A DNA stretch of 59,114 nt, taken from assembly GCA_030693235.1 (NCBI GenBank), contig JAUYBE010000004.1:1-59114 (forward strand), written 5' to 3'. Positions 26,508 through 35,119 of this stretch are shown here, one piece after another. This stretch comes from a bacterium (GTDB taxonomy: Bacteria > Patescibacteriota > Minisyncoccia > UBA6257 > UBA9933). Every line of letters starts with the position of its first letter. The stretch's first letter is position 1. The position numbers were made by a program, and so were the translations under genes. A model generated the notes under the pieces. The model was given only the letters and a program-made list of their open reading frames with translations. It did no database searches and was not told the DNA's origin.

Positions 26508-27323
26508 TTATTCCAGTGGGCTTTTAATATTTTTAATCGCCGGATTGGTAACTTTTGTGTATAACTGCGTTGTTCTGATATTTTGATGTCCTAATAGTTC
26601 CTGCACATAGCGCACATCAACGCCATTTTCAAGCAGGTGAGTGGCAAAACTGTGTCTTAAAGAATGAAAAGTCGCATCTTTTTGTATATTCGTTTTTCTT
26701 AAAGCGTTTTCAAAAACTTTCTGCGCCGTTCGTTCGGTCAATTTTCCACCGCGCTCGCTTGAGAATAAATAATCATTTCCTGGCCTATTGGCAATTAAAT
26801 TTATAATATCGTTTTTTATCTTTTTTGGGAAAATCGTAATTCTGTCTTTATTTCCTTTTGCGCCTTTTAAATGAATTGTCAGTTCTTCTAAGTCAATATC
26901 TTTTATTTTTAGATTTATCGCTTCACTTACTCGCAGTCCGGAGGCGTAAGCGAGAGAAATTAAGAGCCGGTGTTTCGCGTTCGCGATCCCGCCTATTATA
27001 ATTTGAATTTCGCTTCTTGAAAGAACGACAGGCAATTTGCCGGCGGTTTTCGCGAATTTAAGATTAATTTGACTGTTTGATTTGATAATATCAGAATAAA
27101 AAAATTTTATTGAGTGAAGATAAACATTTATCGTGTTTGAGGAAAGACCGCTCTCTTTCTTTTTCAATAAAAACCCTCTGATAAAATCAATATCAACTTT
27201 TTCAAAATTGTCTTTCTTCGCTCTTAAATAATAATCCAAGCACCCAAGATAACTCTTAATGGTTTTGGGACTATAATTTCTCATTTTTAATTCGTTTTCA
27301 ACTTGTTTTAAGTATTTTTCCAT
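26508..27323 (-). CDS. IntI-like tyrosine recombinase lacking the integron-specific insertion
   Basis: SAM-like N-domain (LKMRNYS.KT..SY), YASGLR, GAKG.KDR, HSLRHSFATHLL..G.D.R.VQELLGH..I.TT.LY; only 271 aa. Confidence 0.92.
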   Translation of the reverse strand: MEKYLKQVENELKMRNYSPKTIKSYLGCLDYYLRAKKDNFEKVDIDFIRGFLLKKKESGLSSNTINVYLHSIKFFYSDIIKSNSQINLKFAKTAGKLPVVLSRSEIQIIIGGIANAKHRLLISLAYASGLRVSEAINLKIKDIDLEELTIHLKGAKGNKDRITIFPKKIKNDIINLIANRPGNDYLFSSERGGKLTERTAQKVFENALRKTNIQKDATFHSLRHSFATHLLENGVDVRYVQELLGHQNIRTTQLYTKVTNPAIKNIKSPLE

Positions 27324-27356
27324 GATAGTATTTGATCGGTCGATAACATTAATTAA

Positions 27357-27385
27357 ATTTTACGACGACTTCAGATAAAATGCAA
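27357..27385 (-). promoter_or_regulatory. putative sigma-70 promoter of the integrase
   Basis: Minus strand TTGCAT-N17-TAAAAT ending 33 nt upstream of the ATG. Confidence 0.5.
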
Positions 27386-27433
27386 GTTTACGTATATTGT
27401 GCGAAAACACGTCGTCTTTAAACGAGTTATGTG
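27365..27433 (+). other. putative attI-like primary site
   Basis: Degenerate right-half att sequence CTTCAGATAAAATGC...TTGTGCGAAA, then GTTATGTG (27426), which is complementary to CACATAAC at the end of cassette 1. Confidence 0.5.
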
Positions 27434-27519
27434 AAATAATAAAAAATTCTTTTCGCCCTGCGGGTCGATTAAATCGGGGCAAATTTATTTTTTATTTTTA
27501 CATAGCTCACAACAAAACT

Positions 27520-28017
27520 ATGAAAGAAAAATACATTCCATCTTTGGAGGAAGTAAAAAAATCCGAGGAAATGATGTCGCAAGAGGAAAAGAAAATGAGC
27601 GAAGAAAGAGAAGCAACATTCGAAAAAGGTTATAAGGAAGGTGTCAAGAAGGCATACTCAGAGATTGCTTCAAGCATTACTTCCAAACTTGATAATATTA
27701 CAAATCGTGAGAAGCTTGATGAGTTGTATAAATTGCCGTCATTGGCAGGGAGTCAAGAAAGTGAAAAATTGGAGATTGAAGAAAAAGCTCGGGTATTAAA
27801 AGAAGAAATTAAGAAAATGAAAATCGAGGGAGGTATGTATGACGGAGACATAATTGAGATAACGCTTTCAACTGGCGGAGTTGTTAGGGGGATGTTTTTT
27901 GAGGTTGATATCAATTCTGGAGTTATCCGTCTAAATGAAAGAGAGGGTTCAGGTGATATGATACCCATCAGGTTAGTTGAAAAAGTTAGATCACTAGAGG
28001 ATAAAAATAAAAAATAA
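27520..28017 (+). CDS. cassette 1: hypothetical protein, possible C-terminal Sm/LSm-like domain
   Basis: Coiled N-terminus; 'GDIIEITLSTGGVVRGMFFEVD..G.IRL' resembles Sm1 motif. Confidence 0.6.
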   Translation: MKEKYIPSLEEVKKSEEMMSQEEKKMSEEREATFEKGYKEGVKKAYSEIASSITSKLDNITNREKLDELYKLPSLAGSQESEKLEIEEKARVLKEEIKKMKIEGGMYDGDIIEITLSTGGVVRGMFFEVDINSGVIRLNEREGSGDMIPIRLVEKVRSLEDKNKK

Positions 28018-28071
28018 ATTTGCCCCGATTTATTTTCGCTTAATCAGCGAAAAAGAATTTTTTATTACATC

Positions 28072-28268
28072 ACATAACAACGCATATCTGGCTACATCCC
28101 GCCCTTCATTTTATATAAATCAAGGAATGGCGGGACTCCGCCCAAATTTTCATCCCTTAGTTCGATGAAGATTTAGGCGGAGATAATTAAACAAAGCATT
28201 GTCTGAAATCAAAAAGTTTATCCTGCTAAGTCGTGATGAAAACTTCAGATGATGCGTAAACGTTGTGC
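28072..28268 (+). repeat. attC-like site 1 (197 bp)
   Basis: ACATAAC-AACGCATATCTG...CCCAAAT...AAAACTTCAGATGATGCGTAAAC-GTTGTGC. Confidence 0.85.
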
Positions 28269-28311
28269 GAAATCCGCATTTGCCCTAGTGCTAAAAATAA
28301 CATTCAACAAT

Positions 28312-33095: not shown

Positions 33096-33155
33096 CGGAA
33101 TAAAAATAAATTGCCAAAATTATTTTACATTAAGGAAGAGACTTTTTATGACGGC

Positions 33156-33352
33156 GTATAACAACGCATATCTGGCTACAGGAAAATCACTCAAATGTAT
33201 ATTATGGAATGTGATTTTCCCTCCGCCCAAATTTTCATCCCTTAGGTTGATGAGGATTTAGGCGGAGATAATTAAATAAGGCATTGTCTGAAATCAAAAG
33301 ATTATCCTGCTAAGTCGGGATGAAAACTTCAGATGATGCGTAAACGTTAGCT
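33156..33352 (+). repeat. attC-like site 7 (197 bp, close relative of site 1)
   Basis: GTATAAC-AACGCATATCTGGCTACA...CCCAAATTTTCATCCCTTAG...AAAACTTCAGATGATGCGTAAAC-GTTAGCT. Confidence 0.87.
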
Positions 33353-33459
33353 GAAATAATAAAAAATATTTTTTCGCCCTGTCGGTCGATTAAATCGGGG
33401 CAAATTTATTTTTTATTTTTACGTAGCTCAAATTTAATTAAAAACTAATCAACAAAATT

Positions 33460-33972
33460 ATGAAAGAATCAAAACAATTTGAAGGCACTACACCGCCTCA
33501 AGAGCGTAAAACTAATGAGCCAAAAAATTTTGGCGAGTTTCTTCCAAGGGTCGCAAATTTAACAGGCAGACCAATAGAAGAACTTAAGAAGAGTTTTGGA
33601 GAAAGTTGGTACAATGAAGAAATAAATACAGAACTACTTGAAAAAATTGAAAATGGCACGAAAGAATTTATAGAATGGGCTGCATTAGGAGAAATAGGAA
33701 AATATTCTCATGAGGAAGGTAAATCTAAATTAGCTGATTATGAAGCAGTTGCAATGGCCATGAGAGCCTATAAGACGGCAAAAATATTAGAAAAGCAGAA
33801 TCCAGTTTTATGTGCCGATCATTCAAAATTGGAGGAAAAATTTAATGAATTTGAAAAAGAAATGCAGAAGCTTGAAAAAGTAGATACTTCGGAAAATAAA
33901 ATTGCCCGACAAATTCTACTTCAAGGCAGGAATGCAATGGCTTATTTATTAGACAAAAATCTTGCAAAATAA
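33460..33972 (+). CDS. cassette 8a: hypothetical protein
   Basis: 170-aa helical ORF; no family recognised. Confidence 0.65.
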   Translation: MKESKQFEGTTPPQERKTNEPKNFGEFLPRVANLTGRPIEELKKSFGESWYNEEINTELLEKIENGTKEFIEWAALGEIGKYSHEEGKSKLADYEAVAMAMRAYKTAKILEKQNPVLCADHSKLEEKFNEFEKEMQKLEKVDTSENKIARQILLQGRNAMAYLLDKNLAK

Positions 33973-34029
33973 AAAATAAATTTACATCGATTAGTTTAAC
34001 TATTCGCCCAAATGCGATATAATTAAGGC

Positions 34030-34875
34030 ATGGAAAATAACAGAAATGAAAATACTCACATCGCCATTTTTAAAGGCAAAACCATTAGGAGAACGCTATT
34101 TCAAAAAGAATGGTGGTTTTCGGTTACTGATGTTTGCGGCGTGCTTACCGATAGTTCCGATTCAGGTGCGTATTGGAGAAAGCTAAAACAACGGCTCATT
34201 GAAGAAGGGAGTGAAGTCGTGACATTTTGTCACGGTTTGAAATTGCTTGCTCCGGACGGAAAAATGCGTGAAACTGATTGTGCCAATACTGAAGGCATGT
34301 TCCGCATTATCCAGTCAATTCCCTCGCCAAAAGTCGAACCGCTTAAACGTTGGTTAGCGAAAGTTGGTTATGAACGGATACAAGAAATTGAAAATCCTGA
34401 ATTGGCGACAAAACGGACAAAATTACTCTATAAGTTAAAAGGTTACCCTGAAGATTGGATTGAAAAGCGAATGCGAGGCATCGCCATTCGCGAAGAATTG
34501 ACCGATGAATGGAAAAAACGGGGCGCGGAAACCGACCGCGATTATGAAATCTTAACAGCGGAAATTTCGCAGGCAACTTTCGGCATAAAACCGAATGAAT
34601 ACAAAAAATTTAAAGGACTAAGGCGCGAGAATCTCCGCGACCACATGGATGACTTTGAATTGATTTTAACTATGCTCGGTGAAAGGACAACCACTGAAAT
34701 CCACCGTACCAAAGATTCAAAAGGAGTGCCTCGACTCAAAGACGACGCCCGTCTTGGCGGTGAAGTGGCTGGCACGGCCAGAAAACAAATTGAAAGACGA
34801 ATCGGCCGGCCAATAGTTTCAAAAAGTAATTTTTTGAAAAATAAAGAGATTAAAAGATTGAAAAATAAAAAATAA
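34030..34875 (+). CDS. cassette 8b: Bro-N domain DNA-binding protein
   Basis: 'IRR.....EWWFSV.DV..VLT', 'LKL.A.DGK.R.TD', 'IIQSIPSPK.EP.K.WLA.VGYER'. Confidence 0.88.
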   Translation: MENNRNENTHIAIFKGKTIRRTLFQKEWWFSVTDVCGVLTDSSDSGAYWRKLKQRLIEEGSEVVTFCHGLKLLAPDGKMRETDCANTEGMFRIIQSIPSPKVEPLKRWLAKVGYERIQEIENPELATKRTKLLYKLKGYPEDWIEKRMRGIAIREELTDEWKKRGAETDRDYEILTAEISQATFGIKPNEYKKFKGLRRENLRDHMDDFELILTMLGERTTTEIHRTKDSKGVPRLKDDARLGGEVAGTARKQIERRIGRPIVSKSNFLKNKEIKRLKNKK

Positions 34876-34929
34876 AATTGCCCCGATTCACTTTCGCTTA
34901 ATCGGCGAAAAAGAATTTTTTATTACATC

Positions 34930-35005
34930 GCCCAACACGGCATATCTGGCTCCGCTCCGCTACACCCAAATGCTTCGCGCTTCAGATGATGCGTGAACGT
35001 TATAC
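34930..35005 (+). repeat. attC-like site 8 (76 bp, minimal)
   Basis: GCCCAAC-ACGGCATATCTG...CCCAAAT...CTTCAGATGATGCGTGAAC-GTTATAC. Confidence 0.85.
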
Positions 35006-35119
35006 GCCATAATAAAAAGCCTTAAATTCAATTAACTAATAATTTTGGCAATTTATTTTTTTGTGAGTTATAATCCCATTCTCATTTATGCCCCGATTAT
35101 TTAAGCGGGGTATTTTATT

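What the first reader, a model, noticed from the sequence alone, without database searches (positions are those of the whole stretch)
26508..35060. Integron-like cassette array served by a minimal tyrosine recombinase that lacks the IntI-specific insertion
Seen: a 271-aa recombinase transcribed away from eight co-oriented cassettes with unrelated cargo (hydrolase, DMT transporter, DHFR-like, methyltransferase, Bro-N, unknowns). Each cassette starts at GTTNNNN and ends at NNNNAAC. For cassettes 1, 3 and 7 the two ends are perfectly complementary (GTTATGTG/CACATAAC, GTTAGGCGA/TCGCCTAAC, GTTATACGCC/GGCGTATAAC), the signature of excisable circular cassettes. Established: true IntI proteins carry an extra segment (helix I2 region) between the KDR motif and the HxLR box that reads attC extrahelical bases. 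Here that interval is short (KDRITIFP...YLFSSERGGKL), as in Xer-type enzymes. Inference: this is a distinct integron-like gene-capture platform in a CPR bacterium, probably missed by IntI/attC-trained tools.
Basis: partly seen in the sequence, partly recalled or inferred. Interest (0 to 1): 0.92.

Follow-up and report, generated by a model that had tools for sequence, protein, structure and literature searches.

The report
Integron-like cassette array, insertion-less recombinase
A candidate-phyla (Patescibacteria) groundwater bacterium keeps eight swappable gene cassettes, each ending in a folded DNA site, beside a small recombinase that lacks the extra domain thought necessary for integrons, which bears directly on how integrons arose.

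Summary
At 26508-27323(-) lies a 271-aa tyrosine recombinase. It reads away from an attI site and eight co-oriented cassettes, each running GTT…AAC, separated by eight structured attC-like sites, with a ninth truncated cassette at the end.

The recombinase has all catalytic residues but nothing corresponding to the IntI-specific insertion. VchIntIA residues 177-240 have no counterpart, and the IntI model TIGR02249 scores 202 against a cut-off of 265.

The sites fold as an R stem (NNNNAAC/GTTNNNN), a bulge, a strongly covarying L stem and a three-way junction. A covariance model built from them found 168 further hits in about 1.2 Mb of related loci. Nearly all lie upstream and antisense of a recombinase orthologue: 66 of 70 in the metagenome set.

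Contigs that encode the identical orthologue (82% identical to the window's) carry three different first cassettes. Another variant has a different second cassette. Every switch falls exactly at …AAAC(A/G)A|GTT. A cassette's start pairs perfectly with its own end in 44% of 66 cassettes, against 6% for random pairs.

It therefore works like an integron but fails IntI membership. Single-strand folding and replicative resolution are inferred, not shown. I found no published description. Interest is high.

The parts
26508..27323 (-). Tyrosine recombinase, 271 aa. R131, K156, H220, R223, H246 and Y255 are conserved. It has an IntI-type N-terminal domain (PF13495) and a C-terminal KSPLE tail, and lacks the IntI-specific insertion.
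27362..27437 (+). attI. A conserved block ending ...GCGAAAACACGTCGTCTTTAAACGA|GTTATGTGAAAT, with the crossover at or within GTT (27426). The core looks like a dif-type site, with arms ACxTCGnnnTT and TTATGTGAAAT.
   Evidence: Conserved in all lineages. Strain alleles switch here. The right arm is 10/11 identical to the XerD arm of E. coli dif.
27426..28078 (+). Cassette 1. ORF 27520-28017, 165 aa, no family. The ends are complementary over 9 nt, with about 80-nt inverted-repeat 'shells'.
28065..28276 (+). attC-like site 1, about 90-94% identical to site 7
28262..28942 (+). Cassette 2. Serine hydrolase (PF06821). The ORF probably runs 28312-28890.
28929..29071 (+). attC-like site 2
   Evidence: 95.6 bits
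29057..29844 (+). Cassette 3. Small membrane protein, ORF 29202-29645. The ends are complementary over 9 nt.
29831..29943 (+). attC-like site 3
29929..30989 (+). Cassette 4. EamA/DMT transporter, ORF 30007-30891.
30976..31091 (+). attC-like site 4
   Evidence: 101 bits
31077..31650 (+). Cassette 5. RibD_C/DHFR-like reductase, ORF 31121-31624.
31637..31831 (+). attC-like site 5
31817..32524 (+). Cassette 6. SAM-dependent methyltransferase, ORF 31865-32500. It resembles the PADLOC model mad2.
32511..32675 (+). attC-like site 6
32661..33162 (+). Cassette 7. Unknown ORF 32706-33095. The ends are complementary over 10 nt and sit inside a 60-nt inverted repeat.
33149..33360 (+). attC-like site 7
33346..34936 (+). 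Cassette 8, with two ORFs: an unknown one at 33460-33972, and a Bro-N protein at 34030-34875 that matches the PADLOC candidate defence family PDC-S13. It shares its shells with cassette 1.
34923..35013 (+). attC-like site 8, the shortest, in which hairpin A is almost absent
34999..35075 (+). ORF-less remnant at the end of the array. It duplicates the first ~24 nt, and later 23 nt, of the 5' shell of cassette 7. thrS follows.
   Evidence: (I15, I25)

Best explanation
This is a chromosomal gene-cassette platform that works like a sedentary integron. Its recombinase belongs to a different family and is simpler than an integron integrase.

Proposed mechanism: the 271-aa tyrosine recombinase acts on attI, a dif-like core next to its own gene, and on the attC-like site that ends each cassette. 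It cuts at G|TT. Circular cassettes are thereby inserted at attI, or at another attC, and excised again. This produces arrays of unrelated, co-oriented accessory genes.

Each attC-like site is read as a folded strand. The R stem (NNNNAAC paired with GTTNNNN) and the L stem rebuild a dif-like duplex that has about three extra bulged bases. A three-way junction lies beyond the L stem.

Shown: the anatomy, the covariation, the linkage of arrays to this recombinase family, and exact cassette replacement at GTT in natural populations of a close relative.

Inferred: that the substrate is single-stranded, which strand folds, that only one strand is exchanged with resolution by replication, and that the adjacent recombinase is the catalyst.
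For: - Anatomy and complementary cassette ends in the window.
- Structure of the sites. The eight window sites are 90% paired, against 32-47% when slid. Across 38 sites from 14 loci the L stem is 93% paired, and 10 of its 11 pairs show compensatory double changes.
- The covariance model R1 finds sites only in the expected place. There are 36 hits in 301 kb, all upstream and antisense of the recombinase. In the metagenome loci, 66 of 70 are (P = 8e-37).
- Integron-type crossover footprint. The 5 nt after GTT are perfectly complementary to the cassette's own end in 29 of 66 cassettes. The figures are 9 of 98 for the R'' of the same site and 6% for random pairs (P = 2e-18).
- Population evidence. 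With the identical recombinase P0003, attI is followed by cassette A (L024 and others), cassette B (L033, where A and its site are precisely absent) or cassette C (L028). attC(A) is followed by B or by D (L029). L043, whose recombinase is 90% identical to the window's, shares the window's attI up to AAACGA|GTTATG and then diverges.
- The recombinase has an intact catalytic set. Its best structural match is VchIntIA. It groups with IntI in the best tree, with support 82/76.
- A separate XerD-type family is widespread in Patescibacteria, so this enzyme need not be the dimer resolvase.
Against: - No direct evidence in this genome. Only assembled contigs of the source run were available, so no circular junctions or excision reads could be seen.
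- No biochemical link between the recombinase and the sites.
- IntI's I2 helix is held to be what reads the extrahelical bases and blocks second-strand exchange (PMC4792948). Without it, the integron mechanism may not apply as such.
- Wobble statistics do not say clearly which strand folds: 39 G:T against 39 A:C, apart from one invariant A:C.
- The sister relation to IntI is not statistically secure. The AU test gives p = 0.31 and 0.46 for the alternatives.
- Cassettes 5 and 8 do not match their own ends.
Confidence: 0.8

Rival explanations
1. Housekeeping Xer doing double duty. On this view the recombinase is the cell's chromosome-dimer resolvase (XerA type), attI is its dif site next to the gene (as with xerS/difSL), and the cassettes are small IMEX-like elements that exploit Xer by presenting folded dif mimics, as CTX phage does.
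For: The best NCBIfam hit is the XerA equivalog NF040815, at 222.4 bits against a cut-off of 220. The family is huge and very conserved: at least 8000 proteins, with the top 120 at 66% identity or more. The gene sits among housekeeping genes, and miaA is adjacent in four other lineages. The right arm of attI is 10/11 identical to the XerD arm of E. coli dif. An archaeal genome carries a 70% identical copy with a minimal array.
Against: Cumulative GC skew rises monotonically across the whole 59-kb window, with no switch at 26-35 kb, so the locus is not at a replication terminus. Patescibacteria also hold a second, equally widespread XerD-type family with a SAM_1 N-domain that clusters with XerC/D. 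It is present on the same contig in L007. The tree places the array recombinase with IntI rather than inside the Xer clade.
Confidence: 0.1
2. Double-stranded, Xer-type module exchange, as in the pdif modules of Acinetobacter plasmids. The 3' half of each site (ACTTC…AC|GTTNNNNGAAAT) would be an ordinary duplex core site like attI. Both strands would be exchanged, and folding would play no part.
For: The 3' half of every site resembles attI: an ACTTC arm, a spacer, and a TTANNCGAAAT arm. The enzyme lacks the I2 helix that adapts IntI to folded DNA. A second-strand exchange some bases away could explain the cassettes whose first 4-5 nt do not match their own end.
Against: The L' arm varies freely in sequence while its distant partner L'' changes in step, with 10 of 11 pairs showing double changes. 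A duplex site would not select for this. R'' and L'' would have no function. The spacer between ACTTC and GTT is 2-3 nt longer in the attC-like sites than in attI, which fits bulged bases in a fold.
Confidence: 0.07
3. A decayed canonical integron. The recombinase would be an IntI that lost its insertion and is dead, leaving the array as a frozen CALIN-type relic.
For: TIGR02249 (IntI) matches both flanks of the missing insertion at 202 bits. In two related loci the recombinase gene is frameshifted or partly deleted (L013, L015).
Against: The short form is the conserved state of thousands of proteins about 270 aa long, with all catalytic residues invariant. Arrays differ between strains that carry identical recombinases. 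No insertion-bearing relative appears among the close homologues.
Confidence: 0.02
4. The repeats are RNA-level or REP-like intergenic elements, such as terminators or regulatory structures, that merely happen to lie near a recombinase.
For: Terminator-like hairpins occur in the shells of cassettes 1 and 8. The sites are transcribed-strand structures that lie between genes.
Against: No Rfam family matches. The sites occur only beside this recombinase family and only in one orientation. Strain differences begin exactly at the GTT of the sites. Cassette starts pair with their own distant ends.
Confidence: 0.01

Closest known systems
Integrons (IntI + attI + attC cassette arrays), especially sedentary chromosomal integrons
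   Same: - A divergently oriented tyrosine recombinase sits next to attI.
- The array is one-directional and holds unrelated, mostly single-gene cassettes.
- The sites are built as R''-L''…L'-R', with AAC/GTT boxes and the crossover at G|TT, so the start of each cassette pairs with its own end.
- Structure is conserved rather than sequence.
- The attI-proximal cassette is gained or lost between strains.
- Cargo includes defence-type genes: an R-M system in L024 and PDC-S13 here.
   Different: - The recombinase lacks the IntI-specific insertion (the I2 helix region) and fails the IntI models.
- The sites are 86-212 nt long. They have a one-sided bulge of about 3 nt between the R and L stems, and a conserved three-way junction (hairpin A, a CCC linker, and hairpin B made of AAATTT…AAAACTTC) in place of a simple hairpin.
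- The cassette ends carry extra inverted-repeat shells of 24-80 nt.
- The R arms are dif-like (TTATGTGAAAT).
- The hosts are Patescibacteria.
Xer/dif systems and IMEX elements (e.g. CTX phage integration by XerCD through a folded single-stranded attP)
   Same: The enzyme is of the short, Xer-like architecture and reaches the XerA equivalog cut-off. The attI and R boxes resemble dif arms. A folded single strand that mimics dif, followed by one-strand exchange, is the established CTX mechanism (from my own knowledge of Val et al. 2005).
   Different: The locus is not at a GC-skew switch. The sites form ordered multi-cassette arrays with modular cargo, not phage genomes. A separate XerD-type family exists in the same phylum.
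'Cand' subgroup of simple tyrosine recombinases (Smyshlyaev et al., 10.1101/542381 / PMC8138268)
   Same: It is described as Xer-related recombinases found only in candidate phyla. This is very probably the same family.
   Different: That work groups them with putative dimer-resolution proteins and reports no sites or cassette arrays. I did not test membership against their profiles.
pdif modules of Acinetobacter plasmids
   Same: Discrete gene modules are bounded by Xer-type sites and exchanged between replicons.
   Different: pdif sites are 28-bp duplex sites in alternating orientation and use the host XerC/D. There is no folded site, no dedicated adjacent recombinase and no attI.

Membership tests
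Integron integrase (IntI) | IntI-specific additional domain (I2 helix region) between the beta-hairpin/KxR and the HxxR box | tested here: not met
   Query residues 173-193 stand against VchIntIA 177-240. TIGR02249 and PRK15417 match in two pieces that flank the gap. Foldseek aligns 317 columns for 271 residues.
Integron integrase (IntI) | Score at or above the curated cut-off of the IntI models | tested here: not met
   TIGR02249 scores 202.5 against 265. NF011946 scores 123 against 435.
Integron integrase (IntI) | Falls inside the IntI clade in a tree with Xer outgroups | tested here: inconclusive
   It is the sister group to IntI with support 82/76, not inside it. The alternative topologies are not rejected, with AU p = 0.31 and 0.46.
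Integron (system) | attI next to a divergently transcribed integrase gene | tested here: met
   A conserved attI lies about 100 nt upstream of the gene in all lineages.
Integron (system) | Cassettes bounded by imperfect-palindrome sites whose structure, not sequence, is conserved, with the crossover at G|TT | tested here: met
   Covariation. Own-end complementarity in 44% of cassettes against 6% for random pairs. Strain junctions fall at GTT.
Integron (system) | attC sites recognised by the IntegronFinder attC covariance model; canonical single hairpin with extrahelical bases | not testable with these tools
   No attC model is available here and Rfam gave no hit. The fold differs: it is a three-way junction with a one-sided 3-nt bulge.
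Integron (system) | Cassettes are mobile (excision and insertion) | tested here: met
   This was met in the close relative that carries P0003 and in L043. It could not be tested for this genome's own population, because only contigs were available.
Integron (system) | Recombination of a folded single strand with replicative resolution | not testable with these tools
   It is inferred from covariation only. Bottom-strand folds are more stable in 6 of 8 sites, and one invariant A:C would be G:T on the bottom strand.
Xer (chromosome dimer resolution), XerA type | Score at or above the NF040815 equivalog cut-off | tested here: met
   222.4 against 220, so only marginally.
Xer (chromosome dimer resolution), XerA type | Acts at a single dif at the replication terminus (a GC-skew switch) | tested here: not met
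   Cumulative GC skew is monotonic across the window. The site is next to the gene and followed by cassettes.
Xer (chromosome dimer resolution), XerA type | The only Xer-type enzyme of the genome | tested here: inconclusive
   A second XerD-type family is widespread in Patescibacteria and is on the same contig in L007. The window's own genome could not be searched because the genome search was shut.

The most novel reading that the evidence does not exclude
Patescibacteria, and at least one DPANN-type archaeon, carry a phylum-wide class of integron of their own. Its integrase is an I2-less recombinase family that is a sister to, or forerunner of, IntI. That enzyme recombines folded dif-mimicking three-way-junction sites with a dif-like attI. 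If so, single-strand cassette capture does not need the IntI insertion. That would answer the 'chicken-and-egg' question of whether attC sites or the I2 domain came first (PMC4792948), and it would supply a living intermediate between Xer/dif and IntI/attC.
Probability: 0.55. Interest if true: 0.92.

Novelty: new variant of a known kind. Interest (0 to 1): 0.86.

Why it matters
Integrons are defined by an integrase whose extra domain is thought to be what lets it handle folded attC DNA. How that domain and the attC sites could have evolved together is an acknowledged open problem. Here the whole integron logic runs with a plain Xer-sized enzyme and dif-like sites: attI, folded sites, crossover at G|TT, and swappable cassettes.

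The family is very large and is annotated everywhere as XerC/XerD, with at least 8000 homologues. Searches that require the IntI-specific insertion would therefore not report a complete integron. That would leave a major route of gene exchange in tiny-genome symbionts uncounted, including restriction-modification and candidate defence cassettes.

The system is compact and could be tested directly in E. coli.

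Tried and rejected
- Rfam at gathering thresholds found only four tRNAs and nothing in the array.
It was replaced by a 114-position model built from 16 short sites.
- Reads: the source run and two sister runs are held only as Logan contigs. Those contigs break at the repeats, and the joints seen come from other organisms' sites, so nothing could be said about circles or excision. 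One low-depth contig in X1 appears to join 26476 to 35228, but only 39 nt match on one side, so I discounted it.
- The genome search and the fetch from genomes were shut. I could therefore not count recombinases in the window's own genome or place the locus relative to the terminus beyond the 59-kb skew profile.
- Folding strand: G:T and A:C counts are balanced, so the result is inconclusive.
- The tree could not separate 'sister of IntI' from an unresolved IntI/Xer/CPR trichotomy.
- The promoter and terminator scan over the array was not above shuffled expectation, so nothing can be said about a Pc promoter.
- Viral contigs hold no close member of the family. The best is 42% identical.
- None of the window's cassette proteins recurs in the 20 genome loci.
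- Seven literature searches found no description of this system.

Full report
WHAT IS THERE

The window comes from a groundwater metagenome. Its nearest relatives are Portnoybacteria and Parcubacteria MAGs.

An ORF at 26508-27323 on the minus strand encodes a 271-aa tyrosine recombinase. The housekeeping genes miaA and gatB lie to its left. To the right of the array lie thrS and dnaE.

The array sits upstream of the recombinase gene, on the other strand. It consists of a conserved attI (27362-27437) and eight cassettes. Each cassette begins with GTT and ends with AAC.
- GTT at 27426, 28262, 29057, 29929, 31077, 31817, 32661 and 33346.
- AAC at 28078, 28942, 29844, 30989, 31650, 32524, 33162 and 34936.
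- A ninth GTT at 34999 opens a truncated copy of the 5' end of cassette 7.

The cargo genes are unrelated to one another:
- a serine hydrolase;
- an EamA transporter;
- a RibD_C/DHFR-like reductase;
- a SAM methyltransferase;
- a Bro-N protein that matches the PADLOC candidate defence family PDC-S13 at 383 bits;
- four ORFs with no family.

Cassettes 2 and 6 pair only with G:T wobbles. Cassettes 5 and 8 do not pair with their own ends. Instead, the start of cassette 8 matches the end of cassette 5, and the start of cassette 5 matches the end of cassette 6. I read these as footprints of earlier rearrangements.

THE SITES

The eight inter-cassette segments are 86-212 nt long and align end to end. 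They share one architecture:
- An R stem, in which CNNNNAAC pairs with GTTNNNNG. Just outside it lies a conserved ACATC/GAAAT mismatch.
- A one-sided bulge: 1 nt on the 5' side against A(A/T)AC on the 3' side.
- An 11-bp L stem.
- A three-way junction made of a variable hairpin A, a CCC linker and hairpin B (AAATTT… paired with …AAAACTTC).

Within the window, 90% of pair cells are standard pairs, against 72% after shuffling and 32-47% when the partners are slid by 1-3 columns. Across 38 sites from 14 loci the L stem is 93% paired, and 10 of its 11 pairs show changes on both sides. This is selection for intrastrand pairing, not for sequence.

With DNA energy parameters the bottom strand folds more stably in six of the eight sites. 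One invariant A:C in hairpin B would be a G:T on the bottom strand. Otherwise the wobble counts are balanced, so I leave the folding strand open.

THE RECOMBINASE

Pfam finds PF00589 together with the SAM_4 N-domain that is typical of IntI.

NCBIfam scores:
- XerA equivalog NF040815: 222 bits, cut-off 220.
- IntI model TIGR02249: 202 bits, cut-off 265, in two pieces that flank the position of the insertion.
- XerC and XerD models: 187 and 182 bits.

Against solved structures by sequence, archaeal XerA scores 141 and 139 bits and VchIntIA scores 136. The VchIntIA alignment skips its residues 177-240. E. coli XerD reaches only 80 bits.

An AlphaFold model (pLDDT 81) has VchIntIA as its best Foldseek match, with E = 2e-14 and 317 alignment columns for 271 residues. 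XerA comes next.

The catalytic R, K, H, R, H and Y residues are invariant in the family. So is a C-terminal KSPL(D/E) tail, which is shared with IntI1 and VchIntIA but not with E. coli XerC/D.

In an ML tree the family (support 99/99) is sister to IntI (100/99), joined with support 82/76, and stands apart from a Xer clade (88/94). The AU test does not reject the alternatives, at p = 0.31 and 0.46. So 'sister of IntI' is the best reading but is not secure.

LINKAGE OF ARRAYS TO THE RECOMBINASE FAMILY

The family is very large. There are at least 8000 homologues, and the top 120 are all about 270 aa long and at least 66% identical. They are annotated as XerC, XerD or a generic recombinase.

A covariance model built from 16 short sites (R1) gave the following:
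- In the window plus 20 genome loci (301 kb, both strands) it found 36 sites. Every one lies upstream of the recombinase orthologue on the opposite strand.
- Of the 12 genome loci with at least 500 nt upstream, 11 have a site. Several contigs end inside a site.
- In 80 metagenome loci it found 70 more sites. Of these, 66 lie in the upstream/antisense compartment, which makes up 23% of the searched space (P = 8e-37).
- Detection falls with recombinase divergence: 14 of 16 loci at 55% identity or more, 12 of 26 at 41-54%, and 0 of 15 below 41%.

The attI core (…TATACGAAAACACTTCGTATATAAACGA|GTTNNNNGAAAT) is conserved across lineages. It is also present in an Altiarchaeales genome that carries a 70% identical recombinase and one site.

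EVIDENCE THAT CASSETTES MOVE AT GTT

Ten contigs from different groundwater samples encode the identical recombinase P0003, which is 82% identical to the window's. They differ as follows:
- Eight have attI followed by cassette A (a 357-aa ORF) and then, where the contig extends that far, cassette B (a Tsp45I-type restriction-modification pair).
- L033 lacks cassette A and its site precisely. Its sequence reads …TTTAAACAA|GTTATGTGAAAT…, which is attI joined to the start of cassette B.
- L028 has a third, unrelated cassette after the same …AAACAA|GTT.
- L029 has a different cassette after the site of cassette A.
- L043, whose recombinase is 90% identical to the window's, shares the window's attI up to AAACGA|GTTATG and then diverges.

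A more general test used 66 cassettes bounded by consecutive detected sites. The 5 nt after GTT are perfectly complementary to the cassette's own far end in 44% of them. The figure is 9% for the R'' of the same site and 6% for random pairs (P = 2e-18). This is the integron signature: the bases after G|TT travel with the cassette.

HOW IT MOST LIKELY WORKS

attI reads like a dif site. Its left arm is ACTTCGTATAT, followed by a spacer of about 7 nt, with the right arm being TTANNCGAAAT. In the window the right arm is TTATGTGAAAT. That is 10/11 identical to the XerD arm of E. coli dif, which I verified in MG1655.

The 3' half of every attC-like site has the same layout, but with 2-3 extra bases between ACTTC and GTT. 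In the fold these are the bulge.

I therefore propose that the folded site rebuilds a dif-like duplex with extrahelical bases. The enzyme would cleave at G|TT and exchange one strand with attI, and the junction would then be resolved by replication, as in integrons and as in CTX phage integration by XerCD. Those last steps are inference.

The cassettes also carry inverted-repeat 'shells' beyond the R box. In 37 of 59 cassettes these score above the 95th percentile of controls. In a circular or single-stranded cassette they would lengthen the R stem by tens of base pairs. Their role is unknown.

RIVALS

Housekeeping Xer with IMEX-like guests. The XerA score, the strong conservation and the dif-like attI argue for this. 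The monotonic GC skew argues against it. So does a second, equally widespread XerD-type family in Patescibacteria, with at least 5663 homologues and a copy on the same contig in L007.

Purely duplex exchange, pdif-like. This is hard to reconcile with the L-stem covariation.

A decayed IntI. This is contradicted by the conservation of the short form and by strain-level turnover.

An RNA or REP-like element. This is contradicted by the exclusive linkage to the recombinase and by the GTT junctions.

COMPARISON WITH WHAT IS KNOWN, AND NOVELTY

The system works like an integron, but it is not a member by the defining protein feature.

The recombinase is very probably the 'Cand' subgroup of simple tyrosine recombinases. 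That subgroup was assumed to be Xer-like, and no sites were described for it.

IntegronFinder-based surveys that I read report no such elements. The archaeal integron study notes 539 attC sites but only six IntI genes in 75 genomes.

Seven full-text searches found no description of this system.

Earlier notes of this scan report the same arrangement in many other CPR genomes. They agree with my reading, but they are not independent evidence.

Escudero et al. set out the open question of how the I2 domain and attC sites could have arisen together (PMC4792948). This system makes that question testable.

LIMITS

- There are no reads for this population.
- The window's own genome could not be searched.
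- The attC model of IntegronFinder could not be run.
- There is no biochemistry.

Noticed in passing
window 27426-27509 / 28003-28078, 33346-33430 / 34861-34936: Cassettes 1 and 8 carry nearly the same ~80-nt 5' and 3' inverted-repeat shells (87-91% identical) around unrelated cargo. A degenerate third copy of the 3' shell (33966-33992) lies between the two ORFs of cassette 8. Sites 1 and 7 are also 90-94% identical, although cassettes 1 and 7 differ.
   Followed up: partly
66 cassettes in window and related loci: Inverted repeats that extend beyond the R box are a general property of these cassettes. In 37 of 59 they score above the 95th percentile of a between-locus control. I do not know this feature from canonical integron cassettes, and its function is unknown.
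   Followed up: partly
window 31077, 33346 versus 31650, 32524: The start of cassette 8 (GTTAGCTGA) is the exact complement of the end of cassette 5. The start of cassette 5 (GTTATACGA) is the exact complement of the end of cassette 6. These may be footprints of attC x attC insertions or of multi-cassette circles.
   Followed up: no
L039 9661-10822 (Altiarchaeales archaeon MAG, contig of 1.39 Mb): An archaeal contig, whose neighbours include STT3 and ribosomal protein L39e, encodes a 70% identical recombinase with the same attI core and one attC-like site. This suggests cross-domain spread of the platform.
   Followed up: partly
L007 3252-4229(-), and P0121-P0240: Patescibacteria have a second, very widespread and conserved XerD-type recombinase family (~315 aa, SAM_1 N-domain). 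It is probably the real chromosome-dimer resolvase.
   Followed up: partly
L109 5514-13606: This locus has two paralogous recombinases (38% identical to the window's) and three attC-like sites on the same strand as the recombinase. That is the opposite of the usual geometry.
   Followed up: no
L012 7369-7724: One attC-like site is 362 nt long, because hairpin A holds an insertion of about 250 nt.
   Followed up: no
L013 1670-2483; L015 5194-5867: In two related loci the recombinase gene is frameshifted or has lost residues 131-175. L015 still has six or seven sites.
   Followed up: no
window 26476 / 35228 (run X1): A low-depth contig (7.7x against 44x) of the source sample seems to join miaA to thrS, skipping the recombinase and the whole array. 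Only 39 nt match on one side and the contig is diverged, so this is unresolved.
   Followed up: no
window 28929-29071, 32511-32675 (runs X1-X3): Contigs from the same and sister groundwater samples match sites 2 and 6 at 90% or more and then continue into different flanking sequence. The same site types therefore sit next to other cargo elsewhere in the community.
   Followed up: no
window 9713-13783: Four tRNA genes reach the Rfam gathering thresholds (9713-9799, 10620-10708, 13004-13075, 13701-13783). They are unrelated to the array.
   Followed up: no
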